A DNA stretch of 64,000 nt from Coriobacteriia bacterium. Its GTDB lineage: Bacteria; Actinomycetota; Coriobacteriia; Anaerosomatales; JAAXUF01. The stretch is taken from NCBI GenBank assembly GCA_013334745.1, contig JAAXWY010000003.1:19492-83491 (forward strand), read 5' to 3'. Both the position numbers and the translations under genes were made by a program. The notes under the pieces were generated by a model, which saw only the letters and a list, made by a program, of their open reading frames with translations, was not told the DNA's origin and did no database searches. Shown piece after piece: positions 1 to 64,000 of this stretch. Each line of letters begins with the position of its first letter. Positions within the stretch are counted from its first letter, which is position 1.

Positions 1-993
1 GCCGACCACGTCAACGTCCAGCCACACGCCGGCGCACAGGCGAACATGGCCGTCTACTACGCGGTCTGCAACCCCGGTGACACGGTCATGGGCATGAACC
101 TCGCCATGGGCGGGCACCTCACCCATGGCTCGACCGTCAACTTCTCGGGTAAGTGGTTCAACGTGGTCCCGTACGGCCTCGACATGGAGACCGAGACGAT
201 CGACTACGACGAGATGGAGCGCCTCGCGCACGAGCACAAGCCGCGCATGATCATCGCCGGTGCCAGTGCGTACCCGCGCGTCATCGACTTCGCCCGCTTC
301 TCGGCGGTCGCCAAGGCGGTCGGCGCCGTCTTCGTCGTCGACATGGCGCACATCGCAGGACTGGTCGCGACCGGTGCGCACCCGTCACCGGTGCCGCACG
401 CCGACTTCGTGACCTCGACATCGCACAAGACGCTGCGCGGTCCGCGTTCCGGCTTCGTTCTGTGTACCGAGGAGTGGGCGTCTGCGCTGGACAAGGCGGT
501 CTTCCCGGGCCTGCAGGGCGGCCCGCTCGAGCACGCGATCGCGGGCAAGGCGGTTGCGTTCGGCGAGGCCATGCGACCGGAGTTCACCACCTACATCGAC
601 AACGTCGTCGCCAACGCCCGCGTGATGGGGGAGGCGATGGTCGCCCGTGGCCTGCGCTTGGTCTCCGGCGGAACCGACAACCATCTGGTGCTCGTGGACC
701 TGCGGCCGGCCGGCATCACCGGCAAGGACGCTCAGATACTGCTCGAAGAGGTCGGGATCACCACCAACAAGAACGCCATCCCCAACGACCCCGAGAGCCC
801 GTTCGTCACGAGCGGCATCCGCGTCGGTTCGCCCGCGATGACGACGCGCGGATTCACCCAGGACGAGGCTGCCGAGGTCGGTCGCCTCGTGGCCGAGACG
901 GTCTTCAGCCGTGACGACGCTGCGGCGCTGGACCGGATCCGGGCCGAGGTTTCCGAACTGCTCGCCAAGCATCCGCTCTATCCCGAACTCTAG
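1..993 (+). CDS. glyA: Serine hydroxymethyltransferase, 5' end cut by the window edge
   Basis: Frame 1 is open from nt 1 ([21 protein letters not shown]...), so the ATG at 46 in the ORF track is internal. The PLP-lysine motif [12 protein letters not shown] and [12 protein letters not shown] are SHMT hallmarks. Stop TAG 991-993. Confidence 0.95.
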
Positions 994-1023
994 AGTCCGT
1001 CCGCAACGGTACGAGGAGCCCAC

Positions 1024-1671
1024 ATGCCCGCCGCAAGCGCCTATCCCAATGTCCACGTGGTCGACCATCCGCTCGTGCAGCACAAGCTCACGATCCTGCG
1101 GTCGACCTCGACGGGTTCAAAGCAGTTCCGTGAGCTCGTCAAGGAGCTTGCGATGCTCGAGGCGTACGAGGCGACTCGACGCTTCCAGCTCGCCGAGACC
1201 ACCGTCACGACACCGATCACCGAGACGGTCTCCTACGTCTTGGCCGGCAAGAAGGTCGCGGTCATCCCGATCCTGCGAGCCGGGCTGGGAATGGTCGACG
1301 GCATCCTCGAGCTCATCCCCGCTGCCCGAGTCGGGCACGTCGGCCTCTATCGCGACCCCGAGACGCTCAAGCCGGTCGAGTACTACTGCAAACTGCCGGA
1401 TGACATCGCCGAGCGCGACGTCCTCATCGTCGATCCGATGCTCGCAACGGGTGGCTCGGCGGCGGCGGCCATCGAACTGCTCCGTGAGAAGGGCGCCAAG
1501 CACATCGATCTGCTCGTGCTGATCGCCGCGCCCGAGGGCATCGAAGAGGTGGTCAAGCACTGTGACGACGTGACGATCTACACCTGCGCCATCGACTCGC
1601 ACTTGAACGACCACGGCTACATCGTCCCGGGCCTCGGCGACGCTGGCGACCGGATCTTCGGCACCAAGTAG
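1024..1671 (+). CDS. upp: Uracil phosphoribosyltransferase
   Basis: 215 aa. PRPP-binding loop [13 protein letters not shown] and C-terminal [17 protein letters not shown] are typical of UPRTase. Confidence 0.95.
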
Positions 1672-1696
1672 CGCTTACGCGCAGGGGGAGGGTCAC

Positions 1697-2173
1697 ATGC
1701 CGCGTCCGTCCTGGGACGAGTACTTCATGGCAATCGCCGAGCAGGTCTCCGGTCGGTCGACGTGCCTGCGTCGCGCGACGGGGGCCGTTCTCGTCAAGGA
1801 CAAGCGCATCCTCGCCACCGGCTACAACGGAGTCCCGCAGGGGCTTGCCCACTGTGAAGCGGTCGGCTGCCTGCGCGAGCGGCGCAACATACCCTCGGGC
1901 AGCCATCACGAGTTGTGCCGGGGAATCCACGCCGAGCAGAATGCGGTGATCCAGGCTGCGAAGCACGGGATAGCCATGGACGGCGCGACCGCGTACTGCA
2001 CCCACCAACCGTGCGTGCTCTGCGCCAAGATACTGCTCAACTCCGGCGTCGTGGACATCGTGTTCCGCGACCCGTACCCGGATCCGCTGTCGGAGGAGTT
2101 GCTGGCCGAGGCCGGTCTCGTTCCGCGCAGGTTCGTCCCCGCACCCGAGGCGGATGGCGGCGCTTCTTCGTGA
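1697..2173 (+). CDS. dCMP/cytidine deaminase-family zinc enzyme (ComEB/dCMP deaminase type)
   Basis: 158 aa. Zinc motifs HAEQNA and PCVLCAKIL at the spacing expected for dCMP deaminases. Its stop overlaps the next gene's GTG (GTGA). Confidence 0.85.
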
Positions 2174-62363: not shown

Positions 62364-62744
62364 ATGAGCGAGTTTCTGGAAGTCGGCAACGTGAGCGAGT
62401 TCGATGAGGGCGAGATGCGCCAGCTTGCCGTGGATGGGCACGAGCTACTCGTCGCCCGAGTTGGCGGTGAGTACTACGTGTCCGACGCCCGCTGCCCACA
62501 CCTTCATGCGCACCTCGCCAAAGGGACGCTCGAGGGCACTGTGCTGACGTGCCCGCTTCACCATTCTCGGTTCGACCTCACCGACGGTCGGTGCGTGCAG
62601 TGGACCGACTTCAGCGGTCCCATCAAAACCATGGCCGAGTTCGCGCGCCACCCGCGCCCGCTGCGGGTGTATGAGACCACTGTCACCGACGGCGTCCTCT
62701 TCGTTGGGCCGGAGAAGCCTCCGGTCAGCTCGGATCAAGCGTGA
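62364..62744 (+). CDS. Rieske [2Fe-2S] domain protein
   Basis: 126 aa starting from ATG at 62364. Cluster ligands CPHLHAH and CPLHHSRF. Confidence 0.88.
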   Translation: MSEFLEVGNVSEFDEGEMRQLAVDGHELLVARVGGEYYVSDARCPHLHAHLAKGTLEGTVLTCPLHHSRFDLTDGRCVQWTDFSGPIKTMAEFARHPRPLRVYETTVTDGVLFVGPEKPPVSSDQA

Positions 62745-62880
62745 CCTTAGGCCAATCCACTCACGAGCCCTCGCTTATCAGCCGATAGTACGGGTGCTAG
62801 GATGATTCGCGGCTCCCGTGCGGCGCACTCGCCACCGGTTTCGGGCCGCGCTCGTGTACGTGGGAACTCTTACTTGGAGG

Positions 62881-63633
62881 ATGCGCGTGGCACTCGAGGG
62901 AAACCTCAAGGACTTCTCACTTTCCGACATGTTCCGTCTGCTCGCATCTGGTGCGAAGACGGGGACTCTGCATGTCGACGGGCCTGATGGCGAAGGCATC
63001 GTGTGCTTCCGGGCAGGCGAGATCTCCTACGCTGAGTCGGGCGGCAACTCCGAGAGCGCCGGCAAGCGCCTCGCTCGCGCTGGGATCATCACCGAGAAGC
63101 AGCTTCGTCAGGCGCAAGGGCTGATGAAGATACAGAAGAAGGACAAGGCCGACCGCAAGCTCGGACAGATTCTTGCCGATGAGGGCTATGTGGACTCAGC
63201 GGTCCTCGAGGGCTTCGTCCGGGATCAGATATCCGACGAGCTCTTCGACCTGCTGCGCTGGGAAGAGGGCACGCTGCGTTTCGAGTCCGATGAGCCGTGT
63301 TCGGGCTCCGACCTCGGACTCACTGTGCCGGTCGATGCCGTACTCACCGATGCGACCCGGCGCCTCGACATGTGGCAGAAGATTCGCGAGAAGATCCCAT
63401 CCATGGACACGCGGTTCGCGATGGCATCGACTCCTGGCCAGAAGCCGGCCGATATCCACCTCAAGCCCCGTGAGTGGATGCTCCTGTGCTACCTGCACGG
63501 CGGTCGCAGCGTTCGCGAGCTTGTCGAGATGACCGGCTACAACGACTTCGAGACCGCGAAGGTCCTTTACGGCATGTACGCTGGCGGGCTGATCCACAAG
63601 GTGGGTCCCGCCGGGGAATCGCTGGCGGATTAA
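62881..63633 (+). CDS. DUF4388 (PATAN-like) domain protein
   Basis: ATG at 62881 follows TTGGAGG. The N-terminus LEGNLKDFSLSDMFRLLASGAKTGTLHV is the DUF4388 signature as I remember it. Adjacent to cheR. Confidence 0.75.
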   Translation: MRVALEGNLKDFSLSDMFRLLASGAKTGTLHVDGPDGEGIVCFRAGEISYAESGGNSESAGKRLARAGIITEKQLRQAQGLMKIQKKDKADRKLGQILADEGYVDSAVLEGFVRDQISDELFDLLRWEEGTLRFESDEPCSGSDLGLTVPVDAVLTDATRRLDMWQKIREKIPSMDTRFAMASTPGQKPADIHLKPREWMLLCYLHGGRSVRELVEMTGYNDFETAKVLYGMYAGGLIHKVGPAGESLAD

Positions 63634-63636
63634 CAG

Positions 63637-64000
63637 GTGGCCAATCCGGTCGATAGCCTCAGGAAGGATCTGACTCCCGAGGAGTTCGAGCGCTTCCGGG
63701 ATTGGATTCATCATCACTCCGGCATCTATCTGGAAGAGAGCAAGGTCGACTCCTTGCGTATCTCGCTTGTGACTCGTGCGACGAGACTCGGCTTTCTGGA
63801 GTACGACGGCTACTTCCAGGTACTGAGTACCGATGAGGATGAGTTCAAGGAGCTCATGAACCTCGTCACCATCAACGAGACGTCATTCTTCCGCTTTCCC
63901 GCACAGTTCGATGCACTGCGTGATCTCGTGATTCCCGAGATTCTCGAGACAAAGGCGCGTCAAAGTCATGCGTTTCGAGTCTGGTCTGCCGGGTGTTCGA
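63637..64000 (+). CDS. cheR: Chemotaxis protein methyltransferase CheR, 3' end cut by the window edge
   Basis: Open frame from GTG at 63637 to the window end; it is absent from the ORF track because it has no stop. FERFRDWIHHHSGIYL, NETSFFR and VWSAGCS are CheR motifs. Confidence 0.85.
   Translation, partial: MANPVDSLRKDLTPEEFERFRDWIHHHSGIYLEESKVDSLRISLVTRATRLGFLEYDGYFQVLSTDEDEFKELMNLVTINETSFFRFPAQFDALRDLVIPEILETKARQSHAFRVWSAGCS

What the first reader, a model, noticed from the sequence alone, without database searches (positions are those of the whole stretch)
1..64000. TAG is the majority stop codon (33 of 57 genes), unusual for a GC-rich bacterium
Seen: I read the stop codon of every CDS whose 3' end lies in the window. 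The tally is TAG 33, TGA 12 and TAA 12. TAG ends most housekeeping genes, including glyA, upp, atpB/F/A/G/C, fabZ, ahcY, secA, prfB, ftsX, rnr and smpB.

Known: published surveys of bacterial stop-codon usage find TAG to be the least used stop in nearly all genomes, with TGA rising as GC content rises.

Inference: this is a lineage-specific shift in termination. It could reflect high RF1 activity or an altered RF2 (see the SPT finding).
Basis: partly seen in the sequence, partly recalled or inferred. Interest (0 to 1): 0.6.

Follow-up and report, generated by a model that had tools for sequence, protein, structure and literature searches.

The report
TAG-dominant stop codons in Coriobacteriia
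This GC-rich Coriobacteriia genome, like its whole bacterial class, ends most genes with TAG and avoids TGA, the reverse of the usual bacterial pattern, and the class also carries a uniquely altered stop-codon-reading protein (release factor 2).

Summary
The count is right. An independent codon-usage gene caller gives 57 complete CDS ends: TAG 33, TGA 12, TAA 12. That is 58% TAG (95% CI 44-71%; p=4e-10 against the ~20% typical of bacteria).

It is not a fluke, an artefact or base composition:
- Out of frame, TAG is about 8 times rarer than TGA (83 vs 695).
- CTAG is strongly avoided (observed/expected 0.20).
- The next in-frame stops downstream of genes are TGA-rich.
- Unrelated high-GC control loci give TAG 20%, TGA 61% with the same caller.

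The window comes from an uncultured Coriobacteriia MAG, and the bias runs through the class:
- Close relatives: 55% TAG.
- Environmental lineages: 41% TAG.
- Gut Coriobacteriales: 53% TAG, 38% TAA and 8.5% TGA.

TGA is still a true stop. It sits in genes with poorer codon adaptation or overlaps the next start codon.

Every Coriobacteriia RF2 examined reads SPT in place of the otherwise invariant SPF decoding tripeptide, with co-varying changes. RF1 in close relatives is canonical.

Best reading: selection at termination disfavours UGA because RF2 is re-tuned, and GC pressure then makes TAG the main stop. The RF2 link is correlational, because TAG share ranges from 23% to 92% among single SPT loci. 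I found no prior description.

The parts
1..993 (+). glyA (5' end cut by the window), stop TAG
1024..1671 (+). upp, stop TAG
1697..2173 (+). dCMP/ComEB-type deaminase, stop TGA (GTGA overlap with the next start)
2170..3306 (+). WecA/MraY-family transferase, stop TGA
3430..3786 (+). small ORF ahead of atpB (atpI position, no family hit), stop TAG
3788..4720 (+). atpB, stop TAG
4817..5032 (+). atpE (by position; not family-tested), stop TAA
5069..5569 (+). atpF, stop TAG
5559..6131 (+). atpH (by position), stop TAA
6132..7742 (+). atpA (by position and size), stop TAG followed by a second in-frame TAG two codons on
7752..8648 (+). atpG (by position), stop TAG
8649..10076 (+). atpD (by position and size), stop TAA
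10086..10517 (+). atpC (by position), stop TAG
10652..11926 (+). murA, stop TGA. It matches the profile over positions 1-417 of 419, so TGA is a true stop.
11951..12373 (+). fabZ, stop TAG
12469..13764 (+). nucleotide-sugar dehydrogenase, stop TGA (TGATG overlap with the next start)
13764..14324 (+). hexapeptide acyl/acetyltransferase, stop TAA
14689..16065 (+). LCP-family glycopolymer transferase, stop TAG
16175..17851 (+). protein with an L,D-transpeptidase domain, stop TAG
17917..18729 (+). purine-nucleoside phosphorylase, stop TAA
18785..20044 (+). ahcY, stop TAG
20049..21389 (+). mtnA, stop TAG
21399..22316 (+). auxin-efflux-carrier family permease, stop TAG
22340..23020 (+). phosphoribosyltransferase-domain protein, stop TGA (third-lowest codon-adaptation score among the 57 CDSs)
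23375..24211 (+). solute-binding protein (SBP_bac_3), stop TAG
24424..25266 (+). solute-binding protein (SBP_bac_3), stop TAG
25411..26697 (+). ABC permease, stop TAA
26698..27435 (+). ABC ATPase, stop TAG
27561..28088 (+). hibernation-promoting factor (S30AE), stop TAG
28264..28935 (+). unknown protein, stop TAA
29196..30530 (+). HD-domain protein in the lower-GC stretch, stop TAG
31043..31666 (+). unknown protein (ORF may start at 30533), stop TAG
31666..32223 (+). DUF5317 protein, stop TGA
32823..35645 (+). BTAD-domain regulator (ORF opens at 32259), stop TGA
35981..38815 (+). secA, stop TAG
38823..39965 (+). prfB (RF2): one uninterrupted frame with no programmed frameshift, stop TAG
39423..39467 (+). 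RF2 decoding loop RISPTDEKKRRQTTF. The SPT codons (39429-39437) replace the canonical SPF.
39969..40799 (+). PHP-domain protein, stop TAG
40793..41674 (+). YitT-family membrane protein, stop TAG
41671..42195 (-). unknown protein, stop TAG
42352..43206 (+). transketolase N-terminal subunit, stop TGA (GTGA)
43251..44135 (+). transketolase C-terminal subunit, stop TAA
44683..50427 (+). 1914-aa BNR / fn3 / multihaem cytochrome protein, stop TAG
50635..51321 (+). ftsE-type ABC ATPase, stop TAA
51311..52255 (+). ftsX, stop TAG
52312..53526 (+). S41 peptidase, stop TAG
53523..53885 (-). unknown protein, stop TAG
54088..56031 (+). rnr (RNase R), stop TAG
56028..57020 (-). Gly_transporter-family membrane protein, stop TAG
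57093..58157 (+). M42 aminopeptidase, stop TAG
58174..58644 (+). smpB, stop TAG
59262..59648 (+). unknown protein, stop TGA (ATGA overlap with the next start)
59645..60523 (+). URO-D-like protein, stop TGA
60563..61051 (+). pyridoxamine-phosphate-oxidase-like protein, stop TAA
61139..61840 (+). unknown protein, stop TGA
61926..62219 (+). cold-shock-domain protein, stop TAA
62364..62744 (+). Rieske-domain protein, stop TGA
62881..63633 (+). DUF4388 protein, stop TAA

Best explanation
**What is shown.** The TAG majority is a real, inherited trait of the class Coriobacteriia, to which this uncultured MAG belongs. It is maintained by selection acting on the termination step itself, not by base composition. 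TAG is enriched only at genuine stop sites. TGA is depleted there and survives mainly in genes with atypical codon usage or where it overlaps the next gene's start codon. TGA and TAG both still work as stops.

**What is inferred.** The cause is most likely the class-specific release factor 2. Its decoding tripeptide is SPT instead of the otherwise invariant SPF. It also carries co-varying changes: S216T, E172V, K177D, Tyr at E. coli position 329, and E-K-K at positions 209-211. Thr now occupies the motif position where RF1's PxT threonine is thought to repel a G at codon position 2. RF2 would therefore serve UGA less well, while canonical RF1 serves UAG normally. UGA becomes the costly stop. 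High GC pressure then pushes the freed stops to TAG rather than TAA. Lineages have purged TGA to different degrees: about 50% remains in some environmental lineages, 21% here, and about 8% in gut Coriobacteriales.
For: **The count and its significance**
- The tally is 33 TAG, 12 TGA and 12 TAA.
- p = 3.7e-10 against 20% TAG.

**The enrichment is specific to stop sites**
- Off-frame inside CDSs: TAG 83 against TGA 695.
- Intergenic: TAG 88 against TGA 164.
- CTAG observed/expected is 0.20, yet 13 of the 42 CTAG sites in the window are C+TAG stops.
- First downstream in-frame stops: TGA 18, TAG 10, TAA 4.

**The trait is class-wide**

| Group | TAG | TGA | TAA |
|---|---|---|---|
| Relatives L082, L083, L085 | 34 | 15 | 13 |
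| Environmental Coriobacteriia | 50 | 62 | 11 |
| Gut Coriobacteriales | 394 | 63 | 285 |
| Basal SPT lineages | 8 | 8 | 4 |
| Control high-GC loci, same caller | 48 | 146 | 44 |

- In gut Coriobacteriales, 41 of the 63 TGA stops are preceded by A.

**TGA is the disfavoured codon**
- Codon-adaptation score per codon is 0.37 for TAG- and TAA-ending genes and 0.24 for TGA-ending genes (p = 0.002).
- 3-4 of the 12 TGA stops overlap the next start codon.

**RF2 is altered across the class**
- SPT is present in every prfB locus long enough to scan, in 120 of 120 window-RF2 homologues, and in 119 of 119 homologues of the divergent member P0152.
- 90 of 90 other RF2 cluster representatives have SPF or SPY.
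- The co-varying substitutions are tabulated.

**Published context**
- In B. subtilis RF2, SPF->SPT is reported to abolish termination activity (PMC6881298, citing Ito et al. 2000).
- In RF1, the PxT threonine T190 contacts U1 and A2, and repulsion of G2 by T190 is proposed (PMC5776981).

**RF1 is canonical in relatives.** Its loop reads RVPATESQGRIHTS.
Against: - Loci with the same SPT loop range from 23% to 92% TAG, and environmental Coriobacteriia still end about half of their genes in TGA. RF2-SPT must therefore read UGA adequately in those lineages.
- No biochemical data exist for any Coriobacteriia RF.
- SPT arose once, so the association rests on a single phylogenetic event.
- Cause and effect could run the other way, with release factors adapting to stop usage (PMC8789281).
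- The per-lineage samples are tens of genes taken from the same two syntenic neighbourhoods, so orthologous stops are not independent.
- prfA of this genome lies outside the window.
- A second, SPF-type prfB elsewhere in these genomes was not excluded.
Confidence: 0.45

Rival explanations
1. RF2-SPT has gained the ability to read UAG as well as UAA and UGA, a partly omnipotent factor. UAG would then be covered by both factors, as UAA is, and would become a preferred stop. UGA would remain covered by one factor only.
For: - TAG-ending genes score the same as TAA-ending genes for codon adaptation (0.37 each).
- The SPT clade has changed exactly the positions where laboratory-evolved Salmonella RF2 gained UAG reading (PMC7530605). 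These are the E172-K177 salt bridge (V and D here) and position 329 behind R213 (Tyr here).
- TGA remains in wide use in several SPT lineages.
Against: - The elements reported to exclude G at codon position 3 are all retained in 25 of 25 SPT sequences: R213, T215 and V202.
- Canonical RF1 is retained in relatives.
- Single-factor coverage normally still allows about 20% usage, as TAG shows elsewhere. It would not explain 8.5% TGA in gut Coriobacteriales.
- Laboratory RF2 variants that read UAG also terminate on UGG and are toxic (PMC7530605).
Confidence: 0.2
2. The stop-codon shift has another cause, and the SPT change is neutral or a later accommodation. Possible causes are a high RF1:RF2 expression ratio, unusually leaky UGA through near-cognate tRNA-Trp or heavy selenocysteine use, or a ribosomal difference.
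For: - TAG share varies widely among lineages with an identical RF2 loop.
- The literature argues that release factors adapt to stop usage rather than the reverse (PMC8789281, PMC9348620).
- The relaxed need for UGA reading in gut Coriobacteriales could have allowed RF2 to drift.
Against: - SPT is strictly conserved across a clade whose members are only 43-50% identical, together with co-varying residues. That is not the pattern of drift.
- SPT is also fixed in lineages that still use about 50% TGA, so relaxed selection on UGA reading does not explain it.
- No expression data are available either way.
Confidence: 0.25
3. Mutational or sequence-context bias explains the pattern. For example, loss of the usual CTAG/TAG avoidance or a general depletion of TGA could make TAG common everywhere, including at gene ends.
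For: No supporting result was found. Only the general point applies that composition shapes stop usage across bacteria (PMC3549826).
Against: - Off-frame TAG:TGA is 0.12 and intergenic is 0.54, against 2.75 at stops.
- CTAG observed/expected is 0.20, TTAG 0.10 and GTAG 0.38, close to the controls.
- Downstream in-frame stops are TGA-rich.
Confidence: 0.04
4. The result is a sampling fluke, a regional effect or a gene-calling artefact of this 64 kb window.
For: - Only 57 genes were counted.
- The window is rich in housekeeping operons, which here favour TAG.
- In relatives, genes upstream of glyA give a lower share of about 45-55% TAG.
Against: - Binomial p = 3.7e-10.
- The same bias appears in other genomes and other regions.
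- My calls agree with public gene calls.
- Family matches run to the profile ends for both TAG- and TGA-ending genes.
Confidence: 0.03

Closest known systems
Ordinary stop-codon usage of GC-rich bacteria, including most Actinomycetota (the 'TAG paradox': TAG about 20% whatever the GC content, TGA rising with GC)
   Same: - The same three stop codons are used, and the same two-factor system is encoded. RF2 is in the window and RF1 is in close relatives.
- There is no prfB frameshift, as in all Actinomycetota surveyed (bioRxiv 10.1101/2024.09.24.614795).
- TAG and CTAG are avoided outside stop sites, as usual.
   Different: - TAG is 58% here, and 41-55% pooled over the larger groups of the class, instead of about 20%.
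- TGA is 21% here, and 8.5% in gut members, instead of about 60% in matched controls.
- The preprint describes Actinomycetota as having particularly high RF2-specific stop usage. Coriobacteriia are the opposite.
Lineages with very low TGA stop usage: Mycoplasmatota and other code-4/25 lineages (prfB lost, UGA decoded as sense), and Flavobacterium johnsoniae (7% TGA with a normal RF2)
   Same: TGA is strongly under-used as a stop, especially in gut Coriobacteriales (8.5%).
   Different: - prfB is retained and conserved.
- TGA still terminates full-length conserved proteins such as murA and a sugar dehydrogenase.
- The genomes are GC-rich, not AT-rich.
- TAG rather than TAA takes over.
- No suppressor tRNA is present in the window.
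Engineered RF2 SPF->SPT mutant (Ito et al. 2000, as used in B. subtilis, PMC6881298)
   Same: The tripeptide change is the same, Phe to Thr at the third motif position.
   Different: The laboratory mutant is reported to lose stop-codon-dependent termination. In Coriobacteriia the change is fixed across a whole class, sits among co-varying substitutions, and coexists with continued use of TGA stops, so the natural protein must still terminate.
Laboratory-evolved or engineered RF2 variants with broadened specificity (E167K, E172K, K177R, D131Y, A293E, K294N, D329A/G, R213I; PMC7530605)
   Same: The natural SPT clade differs from other RF2s at E172 (Val), K177 (Asp) and position 329 (Tyr).
   Different: - The residues are different, for example E172V rather than E172K.
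- E167 is the common Asp, and R213 is retained.
- No evidence exists that the natural protein reads UAG.
- The laboratory variants were selected in the absence of RF1, whereas Coriobacteriia relatives keep RF1.

Membership tests
Standard bacterial code (table 11) with two-factor termination | TAG, TGA and TAA all act as terminators at the expected C-termini of conserved proteins | tested here: met
   - upp (TAG) matches its profile to the end, 209/209.
- smpB, rnr and ahcY (all TAG) also run to the ends of their profiles.
- murA (TGA) matches to position 417 of 419, and the sugar dehydrogenase (TGA) to 413 of 413.
- Source.
Standard bacterial code (table 11) with two-factor termination | RF1 with a PxT decoding motif is present | tested here: inconclusive
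   prfA is not in the window, which begins inside glyA. Relatives with 75-76% GlyA identity (L082, L083, L085) carry RF1 with the loop RVPATESQGRIHTS about 2.3 kb upstream of glyA.
Canonical RF2 (prfB, TIGR00020) | Whole-protein match above the curated cutoff, with a GGQ catalytic motif | tested here: met
   - The score is 467.5 bits against a cutoff of 370.
- GGQ lies at residues 248-250.
- The best PDB matches are RF2 chains, E = 5e-100.
Canonical RF2 (prfB, TIGR00020) | SPF 'tripeptide anticodon' in the decoding loop | tested here: not met
   The tripeptide is SPT at residues 203-205 (window 39429-39437). 90 of 90 RF2 representatives outside the clade have SPF or SPY.
Canonical RF2 (prfB, TIGR00020) | Specific release activity on UGA and UAA but not UAG | not testable with these tools
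   This needs in vitro release assays or genetics. Continued use of TGA stops implies some UGA activity.
prfB with autoregulatory +1 frameshift | An in-frame TGA within a CTT TGA C slippery site near the 5' end | tested here: not met
   The reading frame is uninterrupted and no CTTTGA occurs in 38501-39200. Absence is the rule in Actinomycetota (bioRxiv 10.1101/2024.09.24.614795).
Stop-codon reassignment (TGA to sense, codes 4/25; or TAG to Pyl or sense) | Loss of the cognate release factor, in-frame use of the codon inside conserved genes, and a cognate suppressor tRNA | tested here: not met
   - prfB is present.
- Conserved genes end at TGA or TAG at full profile length.
- The only RNA gene ARAGORN finds in the window is the tmRNA.
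- The genome-wide tRNA set was not examined.
Typical bacterial stop usage ('TAG paradox' regime) | TAG about 20% and the least-used stop; TGA dominant at high GC | tested here: not met
   The window has 58% TAG and 21% TGA at 63.7% GC. Controls called the same way have 20% TAG and 61% TGA.

The most novel reading that the evidence does not exclude
The class Coriobacteriia has naturally rewritten the RF2 'tripeptide anticodon' from SPF to SPT, with compensating changes, and this has materially altered RF2's stop-codon specificity. RF2 would be either a UAA-leaning factor that reads UGA poorly or a factor that also accepts UAG. TAG would then be the selectively favoured stop across a whole class. 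That would make it the first natural bacterial lineage in which a change in a release factor's decoding motif visibly reshapes genome-wide stop-codon usage without any codon reassignment. It would also be a standing exception to the 'TAG paradox'.
Probability: 0.35. Interest if true: 0.85.

Novelty: new variant of a known kind. Interest (0 to 1): 0.65.

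Why it matters
Why TAG stays near 20% in bacteria whatever the GC content, and whether release factors shape stop usage or merely follow it, are open and debated questions (PMC3549826, PMC4989110, PMC8789281, PMC9348620).

A whole class that inverts the rule offers a natural experiment on both questions. It has high GC, a TAG majority, rare TGA, and a unique change in the RF2 decoding motif that was thought invariant.

The class includes culturable gut species (Collinsella, Eggerthella), so the experiment is feasible. 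RF2 T207F swaps, release kinetics and ribosome profiling could be done directly.

There are practical consequences too:
- Amber-suppression and genetic-code-expansion tools would be badly suited to these gut bacteria.
- Opal (UGA) would be the near-free codon in gut Coriobacteriales.
- Gene finders and taxonomic binners could use the stop-codon signature.

Tried and rejected
**Look-ups that failed**
- Fetching the rest of this genome. Exact look-ups of AtpD, Upp and the identical RF2 (P0001) all returned 'not on record'. I could therefore not obtain a genome-wide count or this genome's own prfA.
- An independent origin of SPT. The divergent SPT RF2 P0152 (43% identical) looked like a candidate, but all 119 of its homologues are SPT and include Eggerthellaceae. 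It belongs to the same clade, so there is no independent replicate. Its contig and those of its nearest relatives are short.
- The nearest SPF-type RF2 (P0125) sits on a 1.5 kb contig and gives no stop-usage sample.
- P0147's contig has fragmented genes. L164 also looks frameshift-prone, which inflates TGA.

**Ideas dropped**
- H214Q in the RF2 loop first looked special, but Gln is common at that position in ordinary RF2s (34 of 90). I dropped it.
- The GPGGQS variant of the GGQ region, shared by RF1 and RF2, also occurs in SPF-type RF2s. I dropped it.
- A TAG-to-Shine-Dalgarno overlap as the cause. The base after TAG stops in the window shows no G excess (A 7, C 12, G 9, T 5).
- GC skew or strand bias cannot separate TAG from TGA, because their composition is the same.

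**Literature.** Eight full-text searches found no description of TAG-rich stop usage or an SPT RF2 in Coriobacteriia. The library lacks most subscription papers, including Korkmaz et al. 2014.

Full report

The window is 63.7% GC. I built a simple self-trained gene caller. It takes stop-to-stop ORFs, learns a codon log-odds model from long ORFs with the GC1>GC2<<GC3 signature, and greedily selects non-overlapping ORFs.

It returns 58 CDSs covering 90% of the window. 57 of them have a 3' end inside the window, and their stops are TAG 33, TGA 12 and TAA 12.

- NCBIfam or Pfam hits support glyA, upp, atpB, atpF, fabZ, ahcY, prfB, ftsX, rnr and smpB. All end in TAG.
- secA was recognised from its translation and C-terminal zinc-finger motif and from Pfam SecA hits on the syntenic gene of relatives. 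It ends in TAG.
- atpA, atpG and atpC are named by operon position and size only. They also end in TAG.

33/57 is 58% (95% CI 44-71%). The binomial p is 3.7e-10 against the ~20% typical of bacteria, and Fisher's test against controls gives p = 8e-8.

The caller is trustworthy. On two relatives with public gene calls it reproduces 17 of 20 and 15 of 17 3' ends. On unrelated high-GC metagenome loci it gives the textbook pattern: TAG 48, TGA 146, TAA 44.

**2. Where does the window come from?**

The RF2 protein is 100% identical to an NCBI entry named 'MAG: peptide chain release factor 2 [Coriobacteriia bacterium]', on a 108 kb contig. The closest species-representative genomes are uncultured Coriobacteriia, with RF2 69-81% identical. 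Collinsella, Enorma, Parafannyhessea and Eggerthellaceae follow at 57-62%. The genome's other contigs could not be retrieved.

**3. Is it composition or selection at the stop site?**

Away from real stops, TAG is strongly avoided, as in ordinary bacteria:
- Off-frame inside CDSs: TAG 83, TGA 695.
- Intergenic, both strands: TAG 88, TGA 164.
- Observed/expected: CTAG 0.20, TTAG 0.10, GTAG 0.38.

13 of the 42 CTAG sites in the window are a sense-codon C followed by a TAG stop. The first in-frame stop downstream of each gene is TGA 18, TAG 10, TAA 4.

The TAG:TGA ratio is therefore 2.75 at stops, 0.12 off-frame and 0.54 between genes. The excess is specific to the termination position, which rules out mutational or oligonucleotide bias.

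TGA is still a genuine stop. murA, a nucleotide-sugar dehydrogenase and the WecA-like transferase end at TGA at full profile length. There is no reassignment.

**4. Which codon is disfavoured?**

| Stop | Codon-adaptation score per codon |
|---|---|
| TAG | 0.37 |
| TAA | 0.37 |
| TGA | 0.24 |

The TAG-versus-TGA difference is significant (Mann-Whitney p = 0.002). Three or four of the twelve TGA stops overlap the next start codon as GTGA, ATGA or TGATG. TAG behaves like the 'good' stop TAA, and TGA is the tolerated one. One caveat applies: the score is self-trained, so it measures how typical the codon usage is, not expression.

**5. Is it lineage-wide?**

Yes. All counts below use the same caller.

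| Group | TAG | TGA | TAA |
|---|---|---|---|
| Window | 33 | 12 | 12 |
| Metagenome relatives, 75-76% GlyA identity (L082, L083, L085) | 34 | 15 | 13 |
| Environmental Coriobacteriia around prfB (L001-L008, L011) | 50 | 62 | 11 |
| About 60 gut Coriobacteriales loci (~1 Mb) | 394 | 63 | 285 |
| Basal SPT lineages (short contigs) | 8 | 8 | 4 |
| Control high-GC loci | 48 | 146 | 44 |

- In L083 and L085, genes upstream of glyA that are not in the window still give 45-55% TAG.
- A relative with 86% RF2 identity gives 9/7/1 using public gene calls.
- In gut Coriobacteriales, TGA is only 8.5%, and 41 of the 63 TGA stops are preceded by A, consistent with ATGA overlaps.
- Each of the first four groups differs from the controls at p <= 6e-5.

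TAG enrichment is thus a class trait. An outright TAG majority holds for some lineages, including this one. Single loci range from 23% to 92% on small samples, and orthologous stops in syntenic loci are not independent.

**6. The release factors**

prfB (38823-39965) is one uninterrupted frame with no frameshift site, as in all Actinomycetota (bioRxiv 10.1101/2024.09.24.614795).

Its decoding loop reads RISPTDEKKRRQTTF. E. coli has RKSPFDSGGRRHTSF and B. subtilis has RISPFDSSGRRHTSF.

SPT is found in:
- every prfB locus long enough to scan;
- 120 of 120 window-RF2 homologues;
- all 119 homologues of a 43%-identical member.

Outside the clade, all 90 full-length representatives of other RF2 clusters, drawn from a 1.8-billion-protein library, have SPF (87) or SPY (3).

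The clade also carries co-varying changes:

| E. coli position | SPT clade | Other RF2s |
|---|---|---|
| S216 | Thr in 24/25 | Ser in 85/90 |
| E172 | Val in 21/25 | Glu, Asp or Gln in 79/90 |
| K177 | Asp in 22/25 | Lys or Arg in 76/90 |
| 329 | Tyr in 23/25 | mostly His, Gln or Asp |

R213, T215 and V202 are unchanged. H214Q is not special.

RF1 in close relatives is canonical, with the loop RVPATESQGRIHTS. It lies about 2.3 kb upstream of glyA, just beyond the window's left edge.

**7. Mechanism**

*Shown:* selection acts at stop sites against TGA and for TAG, and a clade-specific, strictly conserved RF2 variant exists.

*From the literature:*
- SPF->SPT is reported to abolish termination activity in a canonical RF2 (PMC6881298, citing Ito et al. 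2000).
- In RF1, the threonine at the same motif position (T190) contacts U1 and A2 and is proposed to repel G2 (PMC5776981).
- E172, K177 and D329 are sites where laboratory RF2 variants gained UAG reading (PMC7530605).

*Inferred:* the natural SPT RF2 has compensating changes and remains functional, but it serves UGA less well. UGA becomes the costly stop, and GC pressure makes TAG rather than TAA the main beneficiary. I put this at about 0.45.

*Alternatives:*
- RF2 also reads UAG (0.2).
- Another cause is at work and SPT is secondary (0.25).
- Composition (0.04) and a fluke or artefact (0.03) are effectively excluded.

The main weakness is that some SPT lineages still use about 50% TGA, and SPT arose only once, so the association cannot be replicated phylogenetically.

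**8. Comparison with what is known, and novelty**

Surveys put TAG near 20% whatever the GC content and call this unexplained (PMC3549826, PMC8789281, PMC9348620). Actinomycetota are described as especially TGA-rich (bioRxiv 10.1101/2024.09.24.614795). Earlier work noted that Phe is always at the third RF2 motif position, with rare Tyr (PMC1586002).

Eight full-text searches found no report of the Coriobacteriia exception or of a natural SPT RF2. The library is incomplete, so prior mention elsewhere cannot be excluded.

I class this as a new variant of a known kind: stop-codon usage bias coupled to release factors. It has a credible route to something more novel, namely a natural change in release-factor specificity.

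Noticed in passing
window 44683-50427 (+): A 1914-aa protein combines BNR/YCF48-like propeller repeats, fibronectin type III domains and a C-terminal block of multihaem cytochrome c domains (paired CXXCH, MtrC/MtrF-like, cytochrome c7/c3). It looks like a giant extracellular electron-transfer protein, which is unexpected in a Coriobacteriia genome.
   Followed up: partly
L164 13703-19723 (relative with 89% identical RF2): A Calvin-cycle cluster sits next to prfB in a close Coriobacteriia relative but is absent at the same place in the window. It encodes RuBisCO large and small subunits, a CbbX-type AAA protein, FBPase, phosphoribulokinase and FBP aldolase.
   Followed up: no
window 28200-35650: This stretch has lower GC (0.60 against 0.64) and poor codon adaptation. 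It encodes an HD-domain protein, an adjacent unknown ORF, DUF5317 and a large BTAD regulator. The same genes lie upstream of secA in relatives L164 and L165, so it is conserved rather than a recent insertion.
   Followed up: partly
window 58782-59132 (+): A tmRNA gene lies directly after smpB. Its tag peptide is GTNNYALAA, and the tag reading frame ends in TAA, not TAG.
   Followed up: yes
L082-L085, about 2.3-3.3 kb upstream of glyA: Relatives carry prfA (RF1) there, and it ends in TAG in three of the four. L084, a lower-GC relative, has PKT instead of PAT. The window starts inside glyA, so this genome's prfA should lie just off its left edge.
   Followed up: partly
gut Coriobacteriales loci L013-L080: The base after TAG stops is G in 214 of 394 cases and C in 123. 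TAA stops show no such preference. This is a possible RF1 context preference or an overlap with ribosome-binding sites, and it remains unexplained.
   Followed up: no
window 6132-7742 (atpA) and 57093-58157: Some genes carry a second in-frame stop two codons after the first: atpA has TAG GGG TAG, and the M42 peptidase has TAG GCG TGA. There are too few cases to say whether tandem stops are enriched.
   Followed up: no
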